Source of the DNA: Naegleria gruberi
Lineage: Eukaryota
Assembly: GCA_000004985.1 (NCBI GenBank)
Contig: GG738885.1
Length of the DNA: 64,000 nt
Direction: 5' to 3' (one strand)
Shown here one piece after another: positions 8,420 through 63,268 of the stretch (positions are counted from its first letter, which is position 1; each line of letters opens with the position of its first letter). Under the pieces are notes generated by a model, which saw only the letters and a list, made by a program, of their open reading frames with translations, was not told the origin of the DNA and did no database searches. The translations under genes were made by a program, and so were the position numbers.

Positions 8420-9774
8420 TTTTTTGTGTTGAATTTAAAAAATTGTTTTTATTCATCGGAATTGTTTTGTCTTGTTTACTTGCCAAGCCAATTTACCACA
8501 CAAAACCTATTCATAAGAAACTTGATAAAACACGAATTGTTGTTGAATTTCGTATGTCTTACCAATGTTGTATGTTTAAACAATAATGCCATGGTTGATG
8601 ATTCAAACAAATCAATTAAAAATATGATGATGGTTATTCTCCTTTGAATGCACTTGATGGGAAACATTTACTGCTTGCTATTGATACCTTTAAAACAAGC
8701 ATCCAAACAAGCAACAACTACCTCACTAATGAATGGCAAAATAATCAACAGAAGTGTTTCGGAGTTGATAGCTATTTGGTTAATTGAAAATTGTGTCAAT
8801 ACTATTAATTAGAAAATTGAGGAAACCAATATGAAACAGAGCCAACCAATCTATGAAATTATTATTAGGCATGGAATAATGCAAAATCAAAACTATTGGA
8901 AAGATATGATATTTCATCATTTCTCTCTTCTGAAATCAAAAATAAGATATTACAACTTGTGATTACAAGAAAGTTAGTAACAAAAAGTGACAAAGTGGAG
9001 AATGATTTAACTTGGTCAGACTTGGAGAACAGAGGATTGGTAATGTTAGAGCAATTTAATACAATCAAAGAAAACTCTTCACAAGAAGAGAATGCTCAAG
9101 TTCAGGTTACATATCCTATCATTCTTTCATCATTATTACCTACTAATTTAAGAGATATTTACAACAAATTATTCAATACCAACCTCTCTGAACTATAGAA
9201 GGCCATCTTCTTGGGAGGATGTAGTTTTTGAATATTATTATTTGACCCTGGTATTATCGAAAGAACAAAAATCATTAACATTGAAAGAATTATTTCCATT
9301 TTCAAAATGAATCCAACACATCAGATTTAATAAGACTTATTCGAAACATGAAGTTAATTTCATCATGATGATTTGGATTTCCAATAGTTGTAGCATTCTC
9401 CTCATTATGACGATGAGAACAACATCAAGACCTCCTATTTCCAAAGCTCTCTTCAGTTGCTCCCAATTGACTTGGTGTGAATAATTTGGTGGTGTTTGAA
9501 TGTTGTTTAACCCACCTGCCTACAGAATAATCAATGAAGTAAAATTAAAAGGCTGATGATGAATATGATTACATGATGAACTCATTACGGAATCGTTATT
9601 GTTGATCCAACTGGCTCTCTAACATTAAATATGTTTGGATTTGTGGATGTTGGTTGTGTTTTGATGTTTCTTGCAATCTTCTCCTTTCGTTTGGAATGTT
9701 GAGGCATTTTGCTCTCATTCTCTCCATACTAAGAGTCTGCACAATCAACAAGCCTTGTTCTCCTTTACAAAAAA

Positions 9775-53600: not shown

Positions 53601-55781
53601 ATGGAGCGTTTAAAATCCCTCTTTAAAAGCACACGAGAAGTAACTGATCTTCAATCAAAACCAATAGAAGAATGGAGTGTAAAAGACTTTCAAGAATGGT
53701 TGAGAGAACATCAATATCAAAAGAAGGTTACACAGAGTAAGTGATTTTTAAAGTTTAATTATTCGAATATATAATGTTGTATGAAAGTTTTAAAAAAGGA
53801 AGAATGGAACGGAAAGTGTTTAATCGATTTTACAGAAGAAGATTTAAAAAAGCTAGGAATTCCAAGGTTTGTAATTTTATATAGCCTCCTTTCGAATAAT
53901 TTTAATTTTTACTTTCTAATAACAATTTATTGATGTAATTTCTATTATTATCAAAATTCGAATTGTACAATTATTATTATTATTAATATTATTTGGTGAT
54001 GATGATTTTAATTTTGATGATTCTTTATTTCACATGTCAAAATTTCTTTTTAACACTAAACACTTTTTACCAATTAATTGACAACATATATTAACACTTT
54101 TAATTGGTCTTTAAAACAGTGGTTCAGCTAAAGGTATAACCAATTCCATCAATCAACTCAAACAAGAACAAATCAAAGCAGGACTTTTCCAACCATCAAG
54201 AGCATCCAATGCTTCACAACGTTTAGATAATAATTCCACATCAACTACAACCTCAACAACAACAAACAATACTGATGATCCAAATAGTGCTGTTTCGAAT
54301 AATCGTCAATCATCAGAATCGAATACTAGTACTGGTACAGCAACAACAGATTCAACACAAAATGGTCATCAAGTGGTTCAATTGTTGGACAAATCAGAGG
54401 AGGAAGACAATTGTGAATCATCATCGGCAACAACAACTCAACAACGATCAAAGGGAGGTACTCTTTTTAATACATCATCTGGATCTGAAATGAATAGTAC
54501 TTCTGGAGGATTAGCTAACGGAAGTGAAAGATATGTTGCTGCACCTCCATTTCTTGTTTCCTCTCTGACAGGTGAAGAAAAGAAGGATTATGACAAGTGT
54601 TTAAAGAAGGTTGAATTGGCTTGTCAAGATTATCCACCTTCTGTTCAAGCTACTATTTGTCAAGATTGTATTTTCCCAGATAGATTTCAATATAGATATT
54701 TTAATCCACTGAGATTGTCAGATAAAGATAGACAAGTTAACAAAATGATGGAACCTTTCATTAAAGTTAAATTGGTCATTACTGAAATGGATACTGGTAT
54801 GGCTCATAGATTATTGAGATTAATTGGTACAAGAATTCACAAAACTATCAAATCTATGGATTACGGAATGTTTCACACTGCTCTCATTGTCGGTGTGTAT
54901 TATGTTGAGGTATGTTGTTATTGTTTTTATTTTTATGGAACGTATTTGAATTTACTTTCTAATTGAATGATAATATTATAATATCATCGTTACATAATAT
55001 TTAATAATAATAATAATTATCTATCATCAATATGTTTGTGATGTGAATTCACATTTTGAAAAAGTGGGTCGATTCTTCACTGGTGACAGTTAGAAAGAAG
55101 AGTAGTAGCAAGGCAGTTTTTGCAACAGACATTGCAACAATTTCAGGACAAGAAAATGTCGATAATGCTTTTAAAAATTTATCGGAATTGATTTGTACAT
55201 GGAACAGAACACGTGACTATGATAACAAGTCATCAAATTGTCAACATTTTTGTACTGAGGCAATTGAAAAACTTGGTTTAGCGTCAGCTTTTGATAAAAT
55301 TGCAAATCAAGGACCACTGAAGGAATATCTCACAAGACTCAAAACCACAGGAGCATGTGACATGTCATACAGAGTTAACGATGATGTTAAAGAAACATTA
55401 TTGAATTCTGATAGTATAACTCCTGAATTGACTGAATTCTTGAAATCTTCTGGAAATGCATTAACATTCCCTTCACACAAAATTCTCGATCAGTTCGTTC
55501 ACATTTTACAAGAAGAAGATCCACTCTATTTTGAGAATGAACCATTCGATTATGTTTTACTGAAAGCTTACGACAGAGCTTTCTGGTTAAGAAGTCAATC
55601 AAAGGGAACCGGTGGCGTTGATACTTCACATTATTGGACAAATCCAAACACTGGTGCTTGCATGTGTCCATTCAACAAGAATGCAACCAATGTTGAAAAT
55701 GAGGAAATTGTCAATTCAATCATTGGCAAAGATTTTGAACTTGGTTCTTATAGACCTACTTATCCTGTGAGATTGGATTAA
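53601..55781 (+). CDS. SAM-domain plus LRAT/H-rev107 (NlpC/P60 papain-like) domain protein. Exons 53601..53736, 53788..53866, 54120..54909, 55065..55781.
   Basis: SAM: WSVKDFQEWLREHQYQKKVTQ|ILKKEEWNGKCLIDFTEEDLKKLGIPR|SGSAKGI. Long N/S/T-rich linker. LRAT-like core FHTALIVGVYYVE|WVDSSLVTV...NKSSNCQHFCTEAIEKLGL carries the His ... Cys (NCxHF) catalytic signature. The 253-nt, very AT-rich third intron is the longest in the window. Confidence 0.7.
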
Positions 55782-56275
55782 TATTTTGTTTCTTTCTAAC
55801 TCTCTACATGTACAAAATAAATTTAAAAGCATTGTGTTCATAAATTTATTTATTTCTCTTCAATATTGACCAATACACATTCCAATACTTAATGTTCATA
55901 GTTCTTAAAGTTCTTAATATATTCCAGGAATATTGATTGTTAGATTGAAAAAAATGTCCAACACTGATGATACTGATCATCATTACAAGCTTTTGATTGA
56001 TAATATTCTTCATGATCGGAAGAAGTATCCATTCCTTGGTCATAATTTTGTTCGATCTGCTCCGATTACAGAAGATGGAAGTGCCACTCATCATGATGAT
56101 AAAAAGGATTTATCAATTCCTATTGGAGCATATGCTTTTCTATTGGATGAATTGGGTTCTTGGGAAGCAATTTATAAGAAATTGTAAATATTTTAATATT
56201 TATTTAAATATTTATTTAATTAATCTTTAATTTAATTGATCAAGATTTTCAAATATATTTGAAGATGTTTCAAAT

Positions 56276-58465
56276 ATGAATGAAGATGTTTGTCTTTTAA
56301 AGATTATTCCAACAGCAGAAGAAGTACAAAATGAAGATTGCATTGAAATTGGAGCTTCCAAATTTGGTGGTTGTCCTGATTTACCAGATTCTATCAATTG
56401 GCCACAAGGAATTGACTCAAATCCTGCCAAATTCATTGCTCAAATCAATTTGCATGATTTGAGATTTTATCACAGTCCAAAAGGTGTTTTACCTCAAAAG
56501 GGATGGTTATTCTTTTTTGTTGGAGTGGACAATGCAAATCATTCACAAGATATGAAACAAGTATTTAGTTTTTATTGGAATGGATCAAGGGATGAAATGA
56601 AAAGAAGATTATCATCCACATTTGAAACTCCAACTCGATTGATTTTTGATGAAAATTCTGAACAAGTGGAGAATGATTATCCAGATAGCTTTTCTTTTTA
56701 TTCGAATCCAATTCAATTGTTTGGACATTCACTCTTTGTGACCTATCCAATCACTACAATGCTATTGTATGCATCTGGTTATGTATTCTTTTTGGAAAGT
56801 GAAATTGAGGTAAGAAAGAGAAAGGGAATTCAATCCCTAATTAACAGATATGAAAGAAGGGGAACAACTGATTATATTTCACCAACGAATATTTCAATTC
56901 TATCACAAGAAGCATATGATAACAGTGGTCAAAGTAACACCTTCTTAACATTTGATTCAACTGCGTTGATTTTTAAGAGATATAGCTCTGTATATCAGAG
57001 TAGAGTTACTGATTGGGATACAAATTCATTTCTGCCACCATTTGTTAAGAGGCACGAACCAAGTAGAGAAAATGAACAGGAAACTGTTAAGTTTTGGAGA
57101 AGAAGTGAAATACTGACTCCTGGTCAAGTGATTTCACCTCCTAAAAAATTGATTACTGCTAATTTTATAACAGAGGATCCGATCAAAACTTCAGTAGACG
57201 AATCTCTTCCTGATACAATTTTAAATAAGGACAAGTGTTTTAGAATTAGTTCTATACTAGCACCAGAAGAATGTGCAGCATTAAGAGTTGCATCTTTACC
57301 TTTCTATACTAATATCCAATCTGAATATCCGAAAGAATATAGAAATTGTGAGAGAGCTCTTTTAAAAAGTCAAAAGTTAGCCGACTTGTTGTGGGAACGA
57401 ATTAAGCCATACCTCAATGAGAATGATTTTAAGAATGTGCTACCCTATGGTTTTGATAATAATGGAGTGTGGAAACCAATGGAAATTAATCCGTGCTTTC
57501 GTTTTTCAGCTTACAAACCAGACACTTATTTCAAACCTCATAAGGATGCACAATTTGTTAGAAATGATAATGAAAAGAGCATTTTCACACTTCTTATTTA
57601 TTTGAATGGAGTAAATCAAGGTGGTTCCACAACGTTCCTTCAAAAGATAAGAGATCAAGAAGCTGAGGATGGATCTGGAATGACCTTTAGAGTTTTACAT
57701 GATGAAAACCCTGAGGAAGGTTCTGTCATACTATTCAATCATGATCTCTATCATCAAGGTTCTGTTGTACGATATGAAAAGATTGTATTGAGAACTGAGA
57801 TTATATTTAAGAGAGTTGATGCATTGAGTGTTCCTCGTTCTGACTATAGAAATACAGAGGAATATGTCAAAGTTAGACAATTAATTGAGGAATCGAATGA
57901 ACTGGAAAAGCAAGGAGATACCAAGCAATCTCTGTTGAAATACCTTCATGCATTGGATTTACAAACTAACATGTCTCCATCTCTTCAATGGTCAGATTTG
58001 AGTAAGAAGAGCAATGTAGAAAGATTACCTGAGGAAATTATTGGAATAATTTGCTCCTTCTTAACAAGTAGAGAAATTGCTAGACAAATGATTCCTCTCT
58101 CTATTTTATTGAACTCTTATTCTAGAAGTCCAATCATTTGGAAGGAGAAATATTATCAAGAGTGGCATCATTCTTCGAATCCTGAAATTGAATACGAAGA
58201 CAATAGTAATCTTGATGATTTGGTTGTTTACTTTAGTGATAATGGAATGCCAGTGGAATGTAATCGAAATGAAATAATTTACAATGAAAATTCTAAGGAA
58301 TACAAGGATTGGTATGCAATGTTCATTTCAAGAAAGTATATGGATTTGTTCTGGTCTCCTGTTCTACTTGATCCAGGAACTTCTTCCTATCGTTATTCTC
58401 TACAAAATTCAGAGACTGCAGATAAGGATATTATGGTATGTGGTAAACCACATCATCCACAGTAA
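56276..58465 (+). CDS. Multidomain ORF (729 codons): DUF1963 (YwqG-like), prolyl-4-hydroxylase-like 2OG-Fe(II) oxygenase, F-box, and at the extreme C-terminus the N-terminus of an actin-related protein.
   Basis: DUF1963 IGASKFGGCPDLPDSINWPQG...FIAQINLHDL...LPQKGWLFFFVG. P4Hc YFKPHKDAQF (HxD), TLLIYLNGVNQGGSTTF, VILFNHDLYHQGSVVRYEKIVLRTEIIFK. F-box LPEEIIGIICSFLTSREIARQMIPLSILLNSY...IW. Then MDLFWSPVLLDPGTSSYRYSL...DIMVCGKPHHP resembles the actin N-terminus. No stop codon interrupts this frame. Confidence 0.6.
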   Translation: MNEDVCLLKIIPTAEEVQNEDCIEIGASKFGGCPDLPDSINWPQGIDSNPAKFIAQINLHDLRFYHSPKGVLPQKGWLFFFVGVDNANHSQDMKQVFSFYWNGSRDEMKRRLSSTFETPTRLIFDENSEQVENDYPDSFSFYSNPIQLFGHSLFVTYPITTMLLYASGYVFFLESEIEVRKRKGIQSLINRYERRGTTDYISPTNISILSQEAYDNSGQSNTFLTFDSTALIFKRYSSVYQSRVTDWDTNSFLPPFVKRHEPSRENEQETVKFWRRSEILTPGQVISPPKKLITANFITEDPIKTSVDESLPDTILNKDKCFRISSILAPEECAALRVASLPFYTNIQSEYPKEYRNCERALLKSQKLADLLWERIKPYLNENDFKNVLPYGFDNNGVWKPMEINPCFRFSAYKPDTYFKPHKDAQFVRNDNEKSIFTLLIYLNGVNQGGSTTFLQKIRDQEAEDGSGMTFRVLHDENPEEGSVILFNHDLYHQGSVVRYEKIVLRTEIIFKRVDALSVPRSDYRNTEEYVKVRQLIEESNELEKQGDTKQSLLKYLHALDLQTNMSPSLQWSDLSKKSNVERLPEEIIGIICSFLTSREIARQMIPLSILLNSYSRSPIIWKEKYYQEWHHSSNPEIEYEDNSNLDDLVVYFSDNGMPVECNRNEIIYNENSKEYKDWYAMFISRKYMDLFWSPVLLDPGTSSYRYSLQNSETADKDIMVCGKPHHPQ

Positions 58466-59435
58466 GTTATTGAAATATTTTCCTAACTAAATTAATTAAC
58501 AACTTTTCAGTTTCAATTTACCAGGATTTGGTATGTACGACATTCTTGCAGGGAGTAGAGCAGCAAACATTAGGAATTCACATTTGATATCTCGTCTTCC
58601 TCTTGTTGATGCTTGTGGAAGAATTGAAGATTATTTAAATTTCAAGACTTTCCTATTTCAATTATATGAAAATGACTTGAACGTCAAATTTCAAACACAT
58701 CCACTTGTGTTAGCTGTCCCATTTTCTTGGACAGAGAAAGATATTTTGATGGTTAAAAGAATAATTAATGAGCTTGGAATTCAGCTATCATGTCTAATAG
58801 ACTCTTCCAAATTGATTGCTTACAATTATTCGAAACCTAATTGTATTTTATTGAATATTTCAGCAAGTGGTACTGCTTGTGTACCAATCAGAAACTATGA
58901 GCCACTGAATGAAATGAAAATATTTGAGCCATTCAATGTTTCTTCCATTCCTCATTCTATGAATTTTTGGGATAATATTTATGGAGCTCTCAGAGTAGTA
59001 CTGATGGTGCCTCCAACCCCACTGGAACAATACGAAACAATGAAGGAAAAGTGGGAAGGTATCACTTATGGAACTAATTATGGAGTGGAGGTGAATTATA
59101 ATCAACATGTATTTGAGGCAGAAACTTTACTTACTATTGGAAACCAATTGTTTGTTAATGCATTCAAAGTATTGAGAAAAACAATTAAATCTCTACAGAT
59201 TAACAGTGATAGTATTGAGGATGTTTTAATTTGTGGCGGGTTTTCCTCAATACACGGCATGAAAGATAGATTAACACGTGAAATTAGAGAAATCTATCCT
59301 AATCTCAATTTGGAATTCAAATCTGATGAAATGGAAGTTATTGGCGGTGCTAAAATAATTTGTAACTTAGCAAAATTTAAACAACAACTTGAAGCGTTCC
59401 AATTAGACAACAATAAATTGCTTAATTTAAGTTGA
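58340..59435 (+). CDS. Divergent actin-related protein. Exons about 58340..58461 and 58511..59435 (49-nt intron). Alternatively this is the C-terminal domain of the preceding ORF.
   Basis: Spliced: MDLFWSPVLLDPGTSSYRYSLQNSETADKDIMVCGKPHHP-H-FNLPGFGMYDILAGSRAANIRNSHLISRLPLVDACGRIEDYLNFKTFLFQLYENDLNVKFQTHPLVLAVP... is collinear with actin (LVVDNGSG..., YVGDEAQ, LKYPIEHGII.NWDDMEKIWHH.F, HPVLLTEAP). The C-terminal half has DVLICGGFSSIHGMKDRLTREI and IGGAKII. Confidence 0.6.
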
Positions 59436-59511
59436 AAGTTTGTTCCAAAAGTGTAAATTACAGTAATTCACGATAGAATTAAACGAAAGAATAGTTTACA
59501 ATAAAATCCGT

Positions 59512-61626
59512 TTAAGGGTTTACATCTGTTATGTGTTTCGTGTAGGATTGAACTGATTCCCATTTTTTGTAAGTAGAGGTTTCTTGTAATCTCTTAAATG
59601 TATCAGATAGGTTTAGCAATAAATCAGGTCCTAAACAATCCCACAGTCTTTCGTATCCTATTTGCCCATCTTTATCACAATCTTTCATCAAAGCATAAAA
59701 CTCCTTCTTACAAACTGATGGAATATTCACTTCAAACTTGGAATAAGGTTGTATAAACTGACTTTCAATATCTTTCATGTCTGTTAACCTTACAACATTA
59801 CTCTCCTTCAATGATTTCAAAATAATATATAATTCATAATTCTCTGAGCTAAACTCCTTCTGACAATATTCCTTAAAAATCTTCAATATTTCAGAATTTT
59901 CCAATTCAATTTCTAAACTTTCATTCTTTTTCACATTTCTATTGGCTATCATTTTGTATATCTCAATAATTAGAACATTCCCACCACTCAATAACGTAAA
60001 ACTAAAACAAGCCAGAGTGTTGAATATTCCTGCCAAAATTTGAACAATATACGTATTTGATGAATCTACTAACAAATTTTCTAAACCTGATGTAATAGCA
60101 ATGATGACAGGAAGGATTAAAGTGAGAAGATCGACTCTAAGATAAAAAGGATCGTCATAGAAAAAGAATTTTCTCAAACCATCTCGAATAATAGATTTTC
60201 TTTGAGTAATGACATCATATATTACGCTCACTAATCCAATAATCCAGAGCAGGATAAGTAAAACCAATATTACAACTGGTCTATAAATATCAGCCAATGA
60301 CTTATCTTCATTAATGAAGAAAAATGTACTGACACAATTTACAATAATGGACAAGAAAAAAGTCATGACGACTGTCATTAGGAAACCACCTTTCTTAGAA
60401 GCCATCATTTTCAATAATTTCTCTCTTTTTGGGAATCTAACTATCAGAGAATATAGATTCCTCAAAAAATAAAATTGTGCAATTGTTGTAATATATATAA
60501 AAAACCACCAGATCATTACCAATAAGGAAACACTATACCAGAATCCAACACATGTCCTAGATAAACCCGTGAATGTTATCATTAGAGAAAATCCTAATAG
60601 TGAACAGTATGGCAATCCAATTCTTCTGATCATTGCAGGCTTTTTGTAAAGTTTCAATCCAAAGAACAAAACAAAGTAAGAAAATACAATCAAGAATTGA
60701 GGTATAATCCAATAATCTAGAACTGGAGAGAAATCCTCACCAAAGCAGCCACTTGTCTCACACATATAGCATGTTGAAGGCAAAAGTAAAGAGGAAATTG
60801 AATAGTACGAAAGATCTGTAAAATTTGAAGAGAATTTTCCAACTTGTTGAGAAATTATAGAATAATTAGCACTTATTTGAGTTCTTCCTGTAACCCCTTG
60901 TATTATTAGAAGATCTGTTTGTGAAAAGTTTGAATATCCAGAAAGCCATCTAAAATTTTGAGCATCTGATACGTCTGGACCATCTAAACATGAAGTTTGT
61001 TCATAATCAAATAAAGAACTGTCAAGTGTTAATGATTTGATTGTAGAAAATGAATAAACTTCGTATGGAATCAGTGGAAAGGCCACAAAATCACTAGTTT
61101 CCATAAATTTACCATCTGTCATTTGTACATCCCTGTAAAATCTCACATAGAAGGAGAAAATATAAGGATCCAGTAAAATAGAATCATACTTTCGCATGTA
61201 ATTTCTTCTCTGGCACATGTCTACGTGTAAATAAATGTTCGAGAAGGTTGATGTTGTAGATGAATCTCCTTTTGTAATAGGTATTTGATAAATACCAAAG
61301 AATTTGGTTAGGTACTTGGTAAATTCAGGTCTTGTGCCAACTGTCAGTTTGTTGTTTTTCAACCAATTCATAATAAAATTTCGTGTTTCATCGTGATTAT
61401 TCATAGATGCAATAACAGTCTGTTCATTGGATGTGAATTTGTTTTTCCACACAAAGAGTATTAGAAAAGTTCTTACACCAACAATTGTATCTCCATTCTT
61501 GATAGAAGAAAGCAGTGAAGAAGTTTGAGCGTGGGTCACACCATTCTTTCTTTCACATTGAACTATTGAACAAAACGTGATTAGAAGTATGATGAAATAC
61601 ACTAGTGTTTGTGTTGTTTTTTTCAT
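59512..61626 (-). CDS. Seven-transmembrane protein with cleavable signal peptide, about 300-aa extracellular N-terminal domain and C-terminal RGS domain (7TM-RGS).
   Basis: Signal MKKTTQTLVYFIILLITFCSIVQC. Seven hydrophobic helices between residues about 300 and 560. RGS box FKEYCQKEFSSENYELYIILKSLKE...FIQPYSKFEVNIPSVCKKEF. Confidence 0.75.
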   Translation of the reverse strand: MKKTTQTLVYFIILLITFCSIVQCERKNGVTHAQTSSLLSSIKNGDTIVGVRTFLILFVWKNKFTSNEQTVIASMNNHDETRNFIMNWLKNNKLTVGTRPEFTKYLTKFFGIYQIPITKGDSSTTSTFSNIYLHVDMCQRRNYMRKYDSILLDPYIFSFYVRFYRDVQMTDGKFMETSDFVAFPLIPYEVYSFSTIKSLTLDSSLFDYEQTSCLDGPDVSDAQNFRWLSGYSNFSQTDLLIIQGVTGRTQISANYSIISQQVGKFSSNFTDLSYYSISSLLLPSTCYMCETSGCFGEDFSPVLDYWIIPQFLIVFSYFVLFFGLKLYKKPAMIRRIGLPYCSLLGFSLMITFTGLSRTCVGFWYSVSLLVMIWWFFIYITTIAQFYFLRNLYSLIVRFPKREKLLKMMASKKGGFLMTVVMTFFLSIIVNCVSTFFFINEDKSLADIYRPVVILVLLILLWIIGLVSVIYDVITQRKSIIRDGLRKFFFYDDPFYLRVDLLTLILPVIIAITSGLENLLVDSSNTYIVQILAGIFNTLACFSFTLLSGGNVLIIEIYKMIANRNVKKNESLEIELENSEILKIFKEYCQKEFSSENYELYIILKSLKESNVVRLTDMKDIESQFIQPYSKFEVNIPSVCKKEFYALMKDCDKDGQIGYERLWDCLGPDLLLNLSDTFKRLQETSTYKKWESVQSYTKHITDVNP

Positions 61627-61788: not shown

Positions 61789-63268
61789 TTATTGATATTT
61801 AGCAAAAAGTAAACTCGAGTTTGTTCCGCCAAATCCAAACGAATTACATAAGGCAGCTCTCACATTAGTGTTGCATGATTGACCTTTAACAATTTGAATA
61901 TTTGATTTTTCTATACCTGTCAAATCATCATCCAGAGTTTCAAAATTAAGAGTTGGTGGAATAGAGTTATTGTAAATTGAAAGAACAGTTCCCACAGATT
62001 CTACTGCACCTGCTGCTCCAAGCATGTGTCCAAGAGATCCTTTCATGCTATTCACATATACAGTTTGTCCACTTTCTGCGAACAGGGATTGGATAGCTTG
62101 CAACTCTACTTTATCACCTGCTGGGGTGCTTGTTGCATGACAATTTACATGGTCAATATCATTCAAATTAATATCTACAATTGAATCATTCAAAGCATTC
62201 TTCATAGCTGTTATGGCTGCTCTACCATCTGGTGAAGGTGTAGTAGGGTGATAAGCATCAGCTGCTGTTCCATACCCAACAATTTCTGCGTAGATTCTTG
62301 CTCCTCTCTCTAAGGCGTGGTCCAATTCTTCCAAGACCAAACAACCTGCTCCTTCTGACATTACAAAACCATCTCTACTTTTATCAAATGGTCTACTCGA
62401 TGTTTGTGGATCTGTAATACCAGACAATGCTCTTGCTCTTGCAAATCCAACATAGAATATTGGATAGTAAGAATTTTCACATCCTCCAGCAAGCATAATT
62501 TTACCTTGACCATATTTGATAAATTGGAATGCCTCTCCAATGCTATGAGCTCCTGTAGCACATGCAGTTGAGCAACTAACCATTGGACCTTGTAAATCGT
62601 GTTGCATAGCAATATAACCAGCTGCCATATTGTTCAAAATACGTGGATAAAATACTGGGCTAACCTTTGTATGTTTCTGAATGATTTGCTTTCTAATGTT
62701 TTATATTACATTGGAAACTTACCAAGCTTTCAACCATTGTAAATGCTTCTCCAATTTCAGCTGCAGCTCCAAGAGAAGAGCCCACAGAAACACCAATACT
62801 ACTTCTATCTTTAATTGACTTGATATCCAATCCAGAATCGATAATAGCTTGATAAGCAGAAACCATACCAAATTGAATAAATTTTGATAATCTAGATTTT
62901 GTAATACTCTTATCTCTATTTGTTGATTCTGTAAATGCAAGACATTTTTCAATTGATTGATCCAACTCTGATTGATCGATAAATCCACCAATACGATTTG
63001 AAATCTTACTCCAAATATTTTGTTCATTCTCAGTCATATTTTCGATTGGTACTGTTCTAATACCACACTTTAAAGAATTTAATTCACTCCACATCTTTTC
63101 AACAGAATTTCCGAGTGGAGAAACAACACCCAAGCCTGTAACAACAACTCTTTTAGGCTTTGGAATTTCCTTCTTTACATTAAATGAATACTTTCTATAG
63201 TGTGTATTATGAGCATTGATAAGTTTAAATGATATTGATTTTCTATTCATCATTTTACTATTGAACAT
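61789..63268 (-). CDS. Mitochondrial 3-oxoacyl-[acyl-carrier-protein] synthase (KAS II / OXSM / CEM1-like). Exons 63268..62723 and 62676..61789.
   Basis: GPMVSCSTACATGAHSIGEAF (active-site Cys), HATSTPAGD, GHMLGAAGAVE, NSFGFGGTN. The intron gtaagt...attcag is 46 nt; an alternative acceptor 12 nt upstream would give a 34-nt intron. The N-terminus MFNSKMMNRKSISFKLINAHNTHYRKYSF looks like a presequence. Confidence 0.85.

What the first reader, a model, noticed from the sequence alone, without database searches (positions are those of the whole stretch)
56276..59435. One uninterrupted ORF fuses DUF1963, a prolyl-4-hydroxylase-like oxygenase, an F-box and an actin-related protein
A 729-codon ORF with no stop in this AT-rich DNA is very unlikely by chance. 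In order it contains: a bacterial-type DUF1963/YwqG module (SKFGGCPDLP...FIAQINLHDL...GWLFFFVG); a complete 2OG-Fe(II) P4H-like catalytic core (HKD ... LYHQG ... RTE); an F-box (LPEEIIGIICSFLT...IW). It then runs, still in frame, into a recognisable actin N-terminus (VLLDPGTSS...), which continues through a 49-nt intron (58462..58510) into a full Arp body. Either this is a single protein of unprecedented domain composition, or two or three genes are packed with no intervening stop (for example through an unseen splice). Speculatively, a P4H tethered to an F-box is reminiscent of the Skp1 prolyl-hydroxylation pathway of some protists, in which Skp1, the F-box partner, is the substrate. That link is inference only.
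Basis: partly seen in the sequence, partly recalled or inferred. Interest (0 to 1): 0.75.

Follow-up and report, generated by a model that had tools for sequence, protein, structure and literature searches.

The report
Hydroxylase–F-box–actin-fold gene, extra bacterial-type head
This is a real, already annotated but unstudied gene of the amoeba Naegleria gruberi, belonging to a large, apparently undescribed family of eukaryotic proteins that join a prolyl-hydroxylase-like enzyme, an F-box and an actin-shaped domain; this copy alone also carries half of a bacterial-type YwqG domain at its start.

Summary
ORF 56276..58465 is 729 codons. A 49-nt GT-AG intron (58462..58510) joins it in frame to 58511..59435. 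The 1036-aa product is identical to Naegleria gruberi XP_002674260 (NAEGRDRAFT_51124, "predicted protein").

The domain combination is only partly unprecedented. The core of P4H-like 2OG oxygenase, one TPR-like hairpin, F-box and actin-fold domain is a conserved family. There are 115 cluster representatives at E<=1e-30, from Naegleria/Willaertia paralogs, chytrid fungi and Amoebozoa. In 73 of 99 long hits all three modules occur in the same order. I found no paper on this family.

- **Catalytic residues:** H422, D424, H493 and K502 are conserved in at least 69 of 70 aligned homologs.
- **Oxygenase type:** by sequence it is closest to collagen-type prolyl 4-hydroxylases, not to the Skp1 hydroxylase PhyA.
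- **DUF1963 head:** it is real (37% identity to a Bacillus YwqG protein) but covers only the first of two repeats. None of 151 homologs has it. It sits where other members carry Macro, WWE, NADAR or ankyrin modules.

Most likely function, by inference: a Skp1-docked, hydroxylase-armed F-box protein. Whether the head is translated with the rest needs cDNA.

The parts
56276..58461 (+). Coding exon 1 (aa 1 to the first two bases of codon 729) of N. gruberi NAEGRDRAFT_51124
   Evidence: ORF list. The spliced product is identical to XP_002674260.1. Codon usage is coding-like in every segment, 0.28-0.41 against a training mean of 0.33 +/- 0.11. GC is a uniform 33-34% with no AT-rich dip inside.
58462..58510 (+). 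49-nt intron, GTAAGT...CTAAC...TTTCAG
   Evidence: Sequence. It keeps the frame. GC is 20% against 33% in the exons. The splice recreates the HPHF motif that is invariant in the five aligned heterolobosean proteins. The product equals the database protein.
58511..59435 (+). Coding exon 2, including the stop codon at 59433-59435
   Evidence: A 99%-identical environmental contig (L005) differs at 13 positions over 58147..59407 (one in exon 1, twelve in exon 2), of which 8 are synonymous and 5 nonsynonymous.
56342..56644 (+). First repeat of a YwqG/DUF1963 ('TYPP') domain, aa 23-123, with the GGxP motif (SKFGGCPDLP) and the conserved Q (FIAQINL)
   Evidence: Pfam DUF1963 at 52-54 bits, profile positions 1-94 of 216. 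tblastn finds bacterial YwqG-family genes, best Bacillus thuringiensis at 3e-7. Pairwise identity is 37% to WP_053514050 aa 41-141. The motifs are as defined in PMC4275035.
56645..57061 (+). Unassigned stretch, aa 124-262. No detectable second TYPP repeat; possibly a relic (IQLFGHS, FLTFDST).
   Evidence: No Pfam hit, no PDB hit and no alignment to the second half of the Bacillus YwqG protein. It is still coding-like (0.30). AlphaFold confidence is below 50 because no homologs cover it.
57062..57835 (+). Prolyl-4-hydroxylase-like 2OG/Fe(II) oxygenase, aa 263-520, including the conserved N-terminal strands that start at the FWRR motif. Catalytic codons: H422 at 57539-57541, D424 at 57545-57547, H493 at 57752-57754, K502 at 57779-57781.
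57851..57976 (+). Single TPR-like helical hairpin, aa 526-567, between the oxygenase and the F-box
   Evidence: The profile hits consensus TPR proteins at 4e-5. AlphaFold predicts two helices, 528-545 and 549-566, at pLDDT above 90. It is conserved across the family (consensus).
58025..58174 (+). F-box, aa 584-633 (LPEEIIGIICSFLT...IW)
   Evidence: Pfam F-box-like reaches only 14.6 bits for this protein, but paralogs pass the cut-off. 43 of 62 homologs match F-box-like. The family profile hits FBXL5 at 2.7e-15, and also KDM2A/B, FBXW7, Cdc4 and Skp2. Helices 586-594, 598-605 and 610-616 are predicted at pLDDT about 90. W622 is present in 68 of 68 sequences.
58175..58357 (+). Linker, aa 634-694, ending in the conserved DWY...F..R helix that leads into the actin fold
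   Evidence: D678, W679, Y680, F683 and R686 are invariant in the Naegleria/Willaertia set. W679 is present in 65 of 68 family members.
58358..59405 (+). Divergent actin-fold (orphan Arp-like) domain, aa 695-1027, interrupted by the intron
55954..56244 (+). Uncertain: a candidate unannotated 5' exon (ATG 55954 to 56183) plus a candidate 61-nt GT-AG intron (56184..56244). Together they would add about 87 aa in frame upstream of M1.
   Evidence: The small ORF has coding-like codon usage in its own frame (0.48) and 34% GC, and is flanked by segments of 23% and 11% GC. The splice would be in frame. It is not in the protein collection. The alignment to Bacillus YwqG then runs to its residue 2, but gains only about 1 bit. 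The splice signals are weak. It could equally be a separate small gene.

Best explanation
What it is (shown). One N. gruberi gene with two coding exons, NAEGRDRAFT_51124. It is a divergent lineage-specific paralog in a widespread eukaryotic family for which I found no published study. The family's fixed core is a collagen-type P4H-like 2OG/Fe(II) oxygenase, one TPR-like hairpin, an F-box, and a divergent actin-fold domain.

What is special here (shown at sequence level). The variable N-terminal slot holds the first repeat of a bacterial-type YwqG/TYPP (DUF1963) domain. In other members that slot carries Macro, WWE, NADAR, ankyrin or other adaptor modules.

How it most likely works (inferred):
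1. The F-box docks the protein on Skp1, either inside an SCF ubiquitin ligase or as a Skp1 heterodimer.
2. The oxygenase has an intact Fe(II) triad and a 2OG-binding Lys. It is probably an active O2- and 2OG-dependent protein prolyl hydroxylase.
3. The actin-fold domain sits where F-box proteins normally carry their substrate-binding domain. In this copy it has lost the actin residues needed for ATP hydrolysis. It probably acts as a protein-binding platform rather than a polymerising ATPase.
4. The N-terminal half-TYPP module adds a peptide-binding or dimerising adaptor.

The net effect would be hydroxylation and/or ubiquitination of a bound client, gated by oxygen and 2OG.
For: Gene model. 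The spliced product is identical to XP_002674260.1. The intron recreates the conserved HPHF motif. Codon usage and GC are coding-like and uniform across all 729 codons, with no AT-rich break. A second strain differs at 13 positions over the Arp region, 8 synonymous and 5 nonsynonymous.

Family. The full HMMER scan gave 3794 hits at E<=1e-3 and 115 at E<=1e-30. Named members are from N. lovaniensis (5 paralogs), N. fowleri, Willaertia, the chytrids Nowakowskiella and Rhizophlyctis, and the amoebozoans Pyxidicula and Dictyostelium purpureum. Pfam on 62 long hits found 2OG-FeII_Oxy_3 in 62, F-box-like in 43 and Actin in 28. Iterated family HMMs found all three modules in order in 73 of 99 long hits.

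Enzyme. H422, D424, H493 and K502 are invariant or nearly so. Sequence and fold are closest to prolyl 4-hydroxylases.

F-box. The family profile hits solved Skp1-binding F-box proteins at up to 2.7e-15.

N-terminal slot. Macro, WWE, NADAR and Ank modules occur there in other members. TYPP domains are predicted peptide-binding modules that arose from a dimer-forming unit (PMC4275035).

Precedent. The Dictyostelium F-box protein JcdI is a Skp1-bound, O2-dependent JmjC dioxygenase (PMC9485057).
Against: - No experimental or transcript evidence was available. Skp1 binding, hydroxylase activity and the substrate are all inferred.
- The F-box of this particular paralog is below threshold in Pfam (14.6 bits). 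It lacks the usual Trp of the 'CKRW' position.
- The DUF1963 match covers only half a domain that normally needs both repeats to fold. No homolog among 151 shares it. M162 would give a protein of 875 aa, the same size as the paralogs.
Confidence: 0.6

Rival explanations
1. The DUF1963 head is not part of the working protein. It would be the remnant of a truncated, horizontally acquired YwqG gene lying upstream in frame, and the functional product would start at M162 (875 aa, like the paralogs). That could happen through an internal transcription start or leaky scanning.
For: - Only repeat 1 of the two-repeat domain is detectable.
- None of 151 homologs has it, and no DUF1963 was found among 62 homologs scanned with Pfam.
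- Homology to the paralogs begins only at about aa 254-273.
- M162 to the end is 875 aa, against 832-922 aa for the heterolobosean homologs.
- No relatives of the head were found in the word-index search or the metagenome scan.
Against: - There is no stop anywhere between M1 and M162.
- Codon usage is coding-like (0.36 for aa 1-116, 0.30 for aa 117-262) and GC is 33% throughout.
- The only strongly AT-rich, promoter-like segment (11% GC) lies upstream of M1, not upstream of M162.
- The GGxP motif and the Q are intact.
- The annotated model starts at M1.
Confidence: 0.2
2. One reading: a Skp1-directed prolyl hydroxylase. The F-box would tether the enzyme to its own substrate, Skp1, as a fused counterpart of the PhyA pathway of Dictyostelium and Toxoplasma.
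For: - An F-box places the enzyme next to Skp1.
- Skp1 prolyl hydroxylation exists in several protist lineages (PMC9485057).
Against: - The oxygenase profile finds collagen-type P4Hs but no PHD/PhyA chain at E<=1.
- It has a 2OG-binding Lys, as collagen-type P4Hs do. My own knowledge is that PHD-type enzymes use Arg.
- Multiple paralogs per species (at least 5 in N. lovaniensis), each with a fast-evolving Arp domain, fit many clients better than one fixed substrate.
- No paper holds Naegleria, Skp1 and hydroxyproline together.
Confidence: 0.1
3. An actin-directed enzyme. The actin-fold domain would pair with actin or with an Arp-containing complex, as Arp4 pairs with actin, and so deliver the hydroxylase and/or the ubiquitin ligase to the cytoskeleton.
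For: - The four-subdomain actin fold is complete and closest to eukaryotic actin, actin-like proteins and Arp4.
- Actin-fold proteins commonly form heterodimers (Arp4-actin and Arp7-Arp9 structures are among the hits).
- One report describes prolyl hydroxylation of non-muscle actin by PHD3 (PMC4161513).
Against: - The Arp domain is the least conserved part of the family.
- It is only 12-16% identical to actins.
- A systematic study reports lack of activity of recombinant PHDs on reported non-HIF substrates (title of PMC6739866).
- No contact surface could be examined.
Confidence: 0.15
4. Annotation artefact or decaying pseudogene: a chance run-on of unrelated fragments.
For: The gene is annotated only as 'predicted protein'. 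The F-box and the second TYPP repeat are degenerate.
Against: - P(no stop in 729 codons) is about 1.6e-25.
- All catalytic residues are intact.
- The same architecture occurs in many species.
- Most differences from a second strain are synonymous.
- AlphaFold confidence is high for aa 275-1027.
Confidence: 0.03

Closest known systems
Dictyostelium JcdI/Fbxo13, a JmjC dioxygenase that is also an F-box protein (PMC9485057)
   Same: A non-haem Fe(II)/2OG dioxygenase and an F-box in one polypeptide. JcdI binds Skp1, is O2-dependent, and is conserved across protists.
   Different: JcdI's oxygenase is JmjC-type and lies C-terminal to the F-box. Here it is P4H-type and N-terminal, followed by a TPR-like hairpin. 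The C-terminal domain here is an actin fold.
Animal KDM2A/KDM2B (FBXL11/FBXL10)
   Same: The order is oxygenase, then adaptor modules, then F-box, then a C-terminal protein-binding domain. The family's F-box profile hits the KDM2A and KDM2B F-boxes at 6e-12 and 1e-11.
   Different: KDM2 proteins are JmjC demethylases with CXXC/PHD modules and LRRs (established knowledge). No P4H and no actin fold.
Collagen-type prolyl 4-hydroxylases: B. anthracis P4H (3ITQ/5HV0), Chlamydomonas Cr-P4H-1 (2JIG/2JIJ), PBCV-1 vCPH (5C5T), human P4H-TM (6TP5)
   Different: In the entries matched here they are free-standing or membrane-bound enzymes, not fused to an F-box or an actin fold. This family has a conserved N-terminal extension (FWRR, EYPxxYRNxxR, RPYGFxxxGxW) whose role is unknown.
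PhyA, the Skp1 prolyl 4-hydroxylase of Dictyostelium and Toxoplasma (6T8M), and animal PHD/EGLN
   Different: No sequence-profile match at E<=1. Lys rather than Arg binds 2OG. PhyA has no F-box and acts on Skp1 as a substrate rather than docking through an F-box.
Actin and orphan actin-related proteins (Arp4/ACTL6A, Arp7/Arp9, kinetoplastid axonemal actin-like proteins)
   Different: 12-18% identity, and no closer to any numbered Arp class than to actin itself. The phosphate-2 loop, Q137 and H161 are replaced in this protein. It is fused behind an F-box. I did not find this described in the two actin/Arp surveys I checked.
Bacterial YwqG / DUF1963 ('TYPP' superfamily; PMC4275035)
   Same: aa 23-123 align to the first repeat of Bacillus YwqG at 37% identity, with the GGxP motif and the conserved Q. 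The YwqG family was already noted in 'a small group of eukaryotes'.
   Different: The second repeat, which carries the nearly invariant pocket Q, is not detectable. Here the module is an N-terminal appendage of a eukaryotic multidomain protein.

Membership tests
F-box proteins | A motif of about 45 residues matching the F-box profile (LPxE[IL]...I...L......W) | tested here: met
   Alone, the window protein is below threshold (Pfam F-box-like 14.6 bits against a cut-off of 24.3). The homologous segment passes the cut-off in paralogs. The 46-sequence family profile that includes it hits solved F-box proteins at 2.7e-15 to 1e-8.
F-box proteins | A three-helix F-box fold | tested here: met
   AlphaFold predicts helices 586-594, 598-605 and 610-616 at pLDDT about 88-95. 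No separate fold search of this small domain was possible.
F-box proteins | Binds Skp1 | not testable with these tools
   Needs co-immunoprecipitation or a complex prediction with Naegleria Skp1.
Prolyl 4-hydroxylase family of 2OG/Fe(II) oxygenases | HxD...H iron-binding triad plus a basic residue that binds the 2OG C5 carboxylate | tested here: met
   H422, D424, H493 and K502 are invariant in A1 to A3 and present in at least 69 of 70 sequences in A4. K502 aligns with the Lys of B. anthracis P4H.
Prolyl 4-hydroxylase family of 2OG/Fe(II) oxygenases | Double-stranded beta-helix fold closest to known P4Hs | tested here: met
Prolyl 4-hydroxylase family of 2OG/Fe(II) oxygenases | Hydroxylates peptidyl proline | not testable with these tools
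   Needs an enzyme assay and identification of the substrate.
PhyA/PHD-type (Skp1 or HIF) prolyl hydroxylases | Sequence membership in the PHD/EGLN/PhyA subfamily | tested here: not met
   The oxygenase profile found no PHD or PhyA chain at E<=1, while collagen-type P4Hs scored 3e-10 to 1e-4. Resemblance exists only at fold level.
Actin / actin-related proteins | Four-subdomain actin fold | tested here: met
Actin / actin-related proteins | Intact nucleotide-binding and hydrolysis motifs (phosphate 1, phosphate 2, Q137, H161) | tested here: not met
   Phosphate 1 is kept (D699, G701, R706 in place of K18).
Actin / actin-related proteins | Assignment to a numbered Arp class (Arp1 to Arp11) | tested here: inconclusive
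   The best matches are spread over actin, actin-like proteins, Arp4, Arp7, Arp8 and Arp9 with similar scores and 9-18% identity. No phylogeny was made.
YwqG / DUF1963 (TYPP) domain | First repeat with the GGxP motif and the conserved Q | tested here: met
   Pfam 52-54 bits against a cut-off of 23. 37% identity to Bacillus YwqG aa 41-141. Motifs SKFGGCPDLP and FIAQINL.
YwqG / DUF1963 (TYPP) domain | Second repeat carrying the nearly invariant pocket Q, which completes the strand-swapped two-repeat fold | tested here: not met
   The Pfam match stops at profile position 94 of 216. aa 117-314 alone gives no DUF1963 or PDCD2_C hit even at E<=10. There is no alignment to the second half of the Bacillus protein. 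The only trace is a possible relic, FLTFDST against LLQIDTN, in which the Q is replaced by T.

The most novel reading that the evidence does not exclude
The P4H-TPR-F-box-actin-fold family would be a self-contained 'hydroxylate and ubiquitinate' device. The oxygen-using enzyme and the E3 substrate receptor, which are separate proteins in the animal PHD/VHL system, would be hard-wired into one polypeptide. The actin-fold domain would serve as a new kind of F-box substrate-binding module. Exchangeable N-terminal readers (half-TYPP here; Macro, WWE and NADAR elsewhere) would choose the clients. That would make it an ancient oxygen- or metabolite-gated proteolysis system in protists and chytrids, possibly linked to ADP-ribosylation or the cytoskeleton.
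Probability: 0.25. Interest if true: 0.85.

Novelty: new variant of a known kind. Interest (0 to 1): 0.55.

Why it matters
Fusions of F-box proteins with 2OG oxygenases are known for the JmjC type (KDM2A/B, Dictyostelium JcdI). In Dictyostelium, JcdI is described as contributing to O2 sensing. This window shows a different and apparently unstudied solution.

- A prolyl-4-hydroxylase-type enzyme is fixed to an F-box and to an actin-fold domain.
- The arrangement is conserved from Heterolobosea to chytrid fungi and Amoebozoa, and is expanded into several paralogs in Naegleria.

If the enzyme is active and the F-box binds Skp1, the family gives direct handles on two open questions. The first is what cytoplasmic P4H-like enzymes do in protists beyond modifying Skp1. 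The second is whether an actin fold can serve as a ubiquitin-ligase substrate receptor.

The recurrence of three different ADP-ribose-related modules (Macro, WWE, NADAR) in the N-terminal slot of other members is an unexplained lead.

The DUF1963 head is of narrower interest. It is a probable bacterial-type acquisition placed in that slot, and a rare single-repeat TYPP module.

Tried and rejected
- **First structure prediction:** the alignment of 5 sequences gave an unusable model (pLDDT 38). The second, with 72 sequences, was good for aa 275-1027. The head stayed unmodelled because no homologs cover it.
- **Fold libraries and coordinates:** the afdb50 library was unavailable.
- **Relatives of the head:** the word-index search with the head alone found nothing. 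The search with the 5-sequence alignment added nothing new. In the single full HMMER job the top 150 places were filled by oxygenase-family hits, so it says nothing about relatives of the DUF1963 head. A JGI metagenome scan for the head found no relatives.
- **Solved structures and NCBIfam:** the PDB sequence search with the head did not reach the YwqG structure. NCBIfam gave no hit.
- **Genomic context:** the N. gruberi contig and the paralog P0002 are not in the gene-position index. Synteny and other N. gruberi paralogs therefore could not be examined.
- **Upstream DUF1963 gene in relatives:** no DUF1963 match anywhere in the loci fetched around the N. lovaniensis, Willaertia and N. fowleri homologs, including upstream of them.
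- **Literature:** searches for the locus tags, for F-box + actin-related + dioxygenase, for Naegleria + Skp1 + hydroxyproline, and in the Dictyostelium actinome and Naegleria actin papers found no description of this family. Two West-lab papers on the distribution of the Skp1 pathway are not held.
- **Internal intron:** a possible intron at 56810..56847 was rejected. It is 38 nt, would shift the frame, and the ORF is coding-like across it.

Full report
**Observation**

The window is AT-rich (about 32.6% GC) and gene-dense, with 24 ORFs of at least 250 codons. ORF 56276..58465 (+) has 729 codons. The chance of no stop over that length at this composition is about 1.6e-25.

A GTAAGT donor sits at 58462 and a TTTCAG acceptor ends at 58510 (49 nt, 20% GC). 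Splicing there joins exon 1 in frame to 58511..59435. The spliced 1036-aa product is identical, residue for residue, to Naegleria gruberi EFC41516.1 / XP_002674260.1 / UniProt D2VP08 (NAEGRDRAFT_51124, 'predicted protein'). The window is therefore N. gruberi, and the gene model already exists in public databases. The splice recreates an HPHF motif that is invariant in the five aligned heterolobosean proteins.

**Domains in the window protein**

Pfam gives three matches:
- DUF1963 at aa 28-116, 52-54 bits, but only profile positions 1-94 of 216.
- 2OG-FeII_Oxy_3 at aa 409-503, 30-31 bits.
- Actin, 38-40 bits.

The F-box is below threshold in this protein (14.6 bits).

**The core is a conserved family, not a one-off**

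The word-index search found four relatives at 33-36% identity covering about 75% of the query. They are a second N. gruberi paralog, N. lovaniensis, N. fowleri and Willaertia magna. All carry the oxygenase and the actin domain, and the N. lovaniensis protein also has an annotated F-box. Each is called as a single gene in its genome.

The exhaustive HMMER scan of 1.84 billion cluster representatives gave 3794 hits at E<=1e-3, 987 at E<=1e-10 and 115 at E<=1e-30. Nearly all of the best 150 match query aa ~312-635, which is the oxygenase through the F-box, and many continue into the actin part. Named members are:
- four further N. lovaniensis paralogs;
- the chytrids Nowakowskiella sp. and Rhizophlyctis rosea;
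- the amoebozoans Pyxidicula operculata and Dictyostelium purpureum.

Pfam on 62 long hits found 2OG-FeII_Oxy_3 in 62, F-box-like in 43, F-box in 32 and Actin in 28. Family-specific HMMs iterated on the hit set found oxygenase, F-box and actin fold, in that order, in 73 of 99 hits of at least 550 aa. Iterated HMMs can drift. The Pfam counts are the conservative figure.

The window protein is 34-38% identical to the heterolobosean full-length homologs and 19-29% identical to the other full-length homologs. Its oxygenase domain is 46-53% against 31-37% identical. It is therefore a divergent member of a lineage-specific expansion.

I found no paper that describes this family.

**Oxygenase**

H422, D424, H493 and K502 are invariant in three alignments and present in at least 69 of 70 sequences in the fourth. 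The family probably consists of active enzymes.

The domain therefore belongs to the prolyl-hydroxylase structural family, and by sequence to its collagen-type side. The oxygenase is the best-conserved part of the protein. It also has extra conserved motifs of unknown role: FWRR, EYPxxYRNxxR and RPYGFxxxGxW.

**Linker and F-box**

Directly after the oxygenase comes a conserved pair of helices (aa 528-545 and 549-566, pLDDT above 90). They match consensus TPR proteins at 4e-5.

A 46-sequence alignment of the F-box segment, with the window protein as first row, hits solved F-box proteins: FBXL5 at 2.7e-15, FBXW12, KDM2A at 6e-12, KDM2B, FBXO3/4, FBXW7, Cdc4 and Skp2. The model has the expected three helices at high confidence. 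The window copy keeps the N-terminal LPxE[IL]...I...L part and the closing Trp (W622, 68 of 68). It lacks the usual Trp of the 'CKRW' position, as do its Naegleria paralogs.

**Actin fold**

With the 72-sequence alignment, AlphaFold gave pLDDT 70.9 and pTM 0.68 overall. Values for aa 275-1027 were mostly 90 or more.
- Foldseek aligns the C-terminal domain to conventional actins over about 360 columns, with target-normalised TM 0.70-0.75 and 12-16% identity.

It is a complete eukaryotic actin/Arp fold that fits no numbered Arp class better than actin itself.

The phosphate-2 loop and the catalytic residues are replaced: D154N, G156S, D157A, G158S, H161A and Q137S. ATP hydrolysis of the actin kind is therefore unlikely in this copy. 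Across the family this domain is much less conserved than the oxygenase.

A 99%-identical environmental contig differs at 13 positions over 58147..59407 (one in exon 1, twelve in exon 2). Eight are synonymous and five nonsynonymous, which is weak evidence of purifying selection.

**The DUF1963 head**

tblastn of aa 1-270 against plasmids finds genes annotated as YwqG family or DUF1963 (best Bacillus thuringiensis, 3e-7). All matches end by about aa 125-134. Pairwise, aa 23-123 are 37% identical to aa 41-141 of WP_053514050, including the GGxP motif and the conserved Q.

According to Burroughs and Aravind (PMC4275035), this domain ('TYPP') consists of two strand-swapped repeats derived from a dimer-forming unit. 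The YwqG family is mainly bacterial with a few eukaryotic members. The domain is predicted to bind extended peptides.

The second repeat is not detectable here. At most a relic remains (FLTFDST against LLQIDTN), in which the pocket Q is replaced. None of the 151 homologs in hand has this head. No DUF1963 turned up in the Pfam scan of 62 homologs. No DUF1963 match occurs in the three loci fetched around the homologs.

In other family members the same N-terminal slot holds other modules:
- NADAR in Pyxidicula;
- Macro, WWE or ankyrin repeats;
- WW, FYVE, rhodanese or a RanBP zinc finger.

The head therefore looks like one more exchangeable adaptor.

**Is the head part of the same protein?**

For:
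- No stop occurs anywhere in the ORF.
- Codon usage is coding-like in every segment, including aa 1-116 (0.36) and aa 117-262 (0.30). The in-frame training mean is 0.33 +/- 0.11 and the off-frame mean is -0.78.
- GC is a uniform 33-34% with no AT-rich break. The only promoter-like stretch (11% GC) lies just upstream of M1.
- No Met lies between residues 162 and 441.

Against:
- Only half a domain is present, and it is unique to this gene.
- M162 would give 875 aa, the size of the paralogs.

I put the fusion at roughly 70-75%. Only cDNA can settle it.

**Mechanism (inferred)**

1. The F-box docks the protein on Skp1.
2. The P4H-like domain hydroxylates a protein proline, using O2 and 2OG.
3. 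The actin-fold domain stands where F-box proteins carry their substrate-binding domain. It probably acts as a binding platform.
4. The N-terminal module adds a further reader or a dimerisation element.

The nearest functional precedents are Dictyostelium JcdI and animal KDM2A/B. JcdI is a Skp1-bound, O2-dependent JmjC dioxygenase with an F-box (PMC9485057). In both precedents the oxygenase is JmjC-type, not P4H-type.

A link to actin is possible but weak. One report describes PHD3 hydroxylating actin (PMC4161513). A later study reports lack of activity of recombinant PHDs on reported non-HIF substrates (PMC6739866).

**Verdict**

- The gene is real and already annotated, but uncharacterised.
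- The three-module core is a widespread family for which I found no published description.
- The fourth module is a unique half-domain addition whose expression is unproven.
- Function is inferred from anatomy only.

Noticed in passing
window 55954..56244: An unannotated 77-codon ORF (ATG 55954, stop 56185-56187) lies between the upstream SAM-domain gene (which ends at 55781) and the finding's gene. In its own frame it has coding-like codon usage (0.48) and 34% GC, and it is flanked by segments of 23% and 11% GC. A GT (56184) ... AG (56244) intron of 61 nt would join it in frame to the main ORF, which is open from 56240. The splice signals are weak, so it may instead be a separate small gene.
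   Followed up: partly
L003 9150..9725 (N. fowleri VFQX01000063.1): The annotated N. fowleri homolog (P0004, FDP41_008733, 832 aa) lacks the TPR-like hairpin and the F-box. tblastn shows that the genome encodes this segment at 9150-9725, so the published gene model probably removes it as a false intron.
   Followed up: partly
proteins P0023, P0085, P0102 (homologs from the representative search): Three different ADP-ribose-related modules occupy the N-terminal slot of different family members: NADAR in Pyxidicula, and Macro and WWE in unnamed sequences. This recurrent association with the P4H-F-box core is unexplained.
   Followed up: partly
window 59512..61626 (-): A 704-aa protein with a run of hydrophobic segments and a C-terminal RGS domain (Pfam 28 bits) converges on the finding's gene, with only 76 nt between the two stop codons. 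An RGS-domain gene also lies about 8 kb upstream of the N. lovaniensis homolog (L001 1-279), which may be coincidence.
   Followed up: no
L005 1262..1290 versus window 59408..59497: A 99%-identical environmental contig (ENA ERZ929261) differs by a deletion or rearrangement at the 3' end. Its protein ends at ...FQLE, whereas the window's ends at ...FQLDNNKLLNLS. The extreme C-terminus therefore varies between strains.
   Followed up: partly
window 54373..55781 (+): The upstream gene (NAEGRDRAFT_80697, 573 aa, 'SAM domain-containing protein' in UniProt) shows only a weak PPPDE-peptidase-like Pfam match (E 0.023) in its last exon.
   Followed up: no
window 61789..62637 (-): An ORF whose translation looks like the C-terminal half of a beta-ketoacyl-ACP synthase (motifs CHATSTPAGD and GHMLGAAG, recognised by eye). 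It is probably one exon of a mitochondrial fatty-acid synthesis gene. It was not searched.
   Followed up: no
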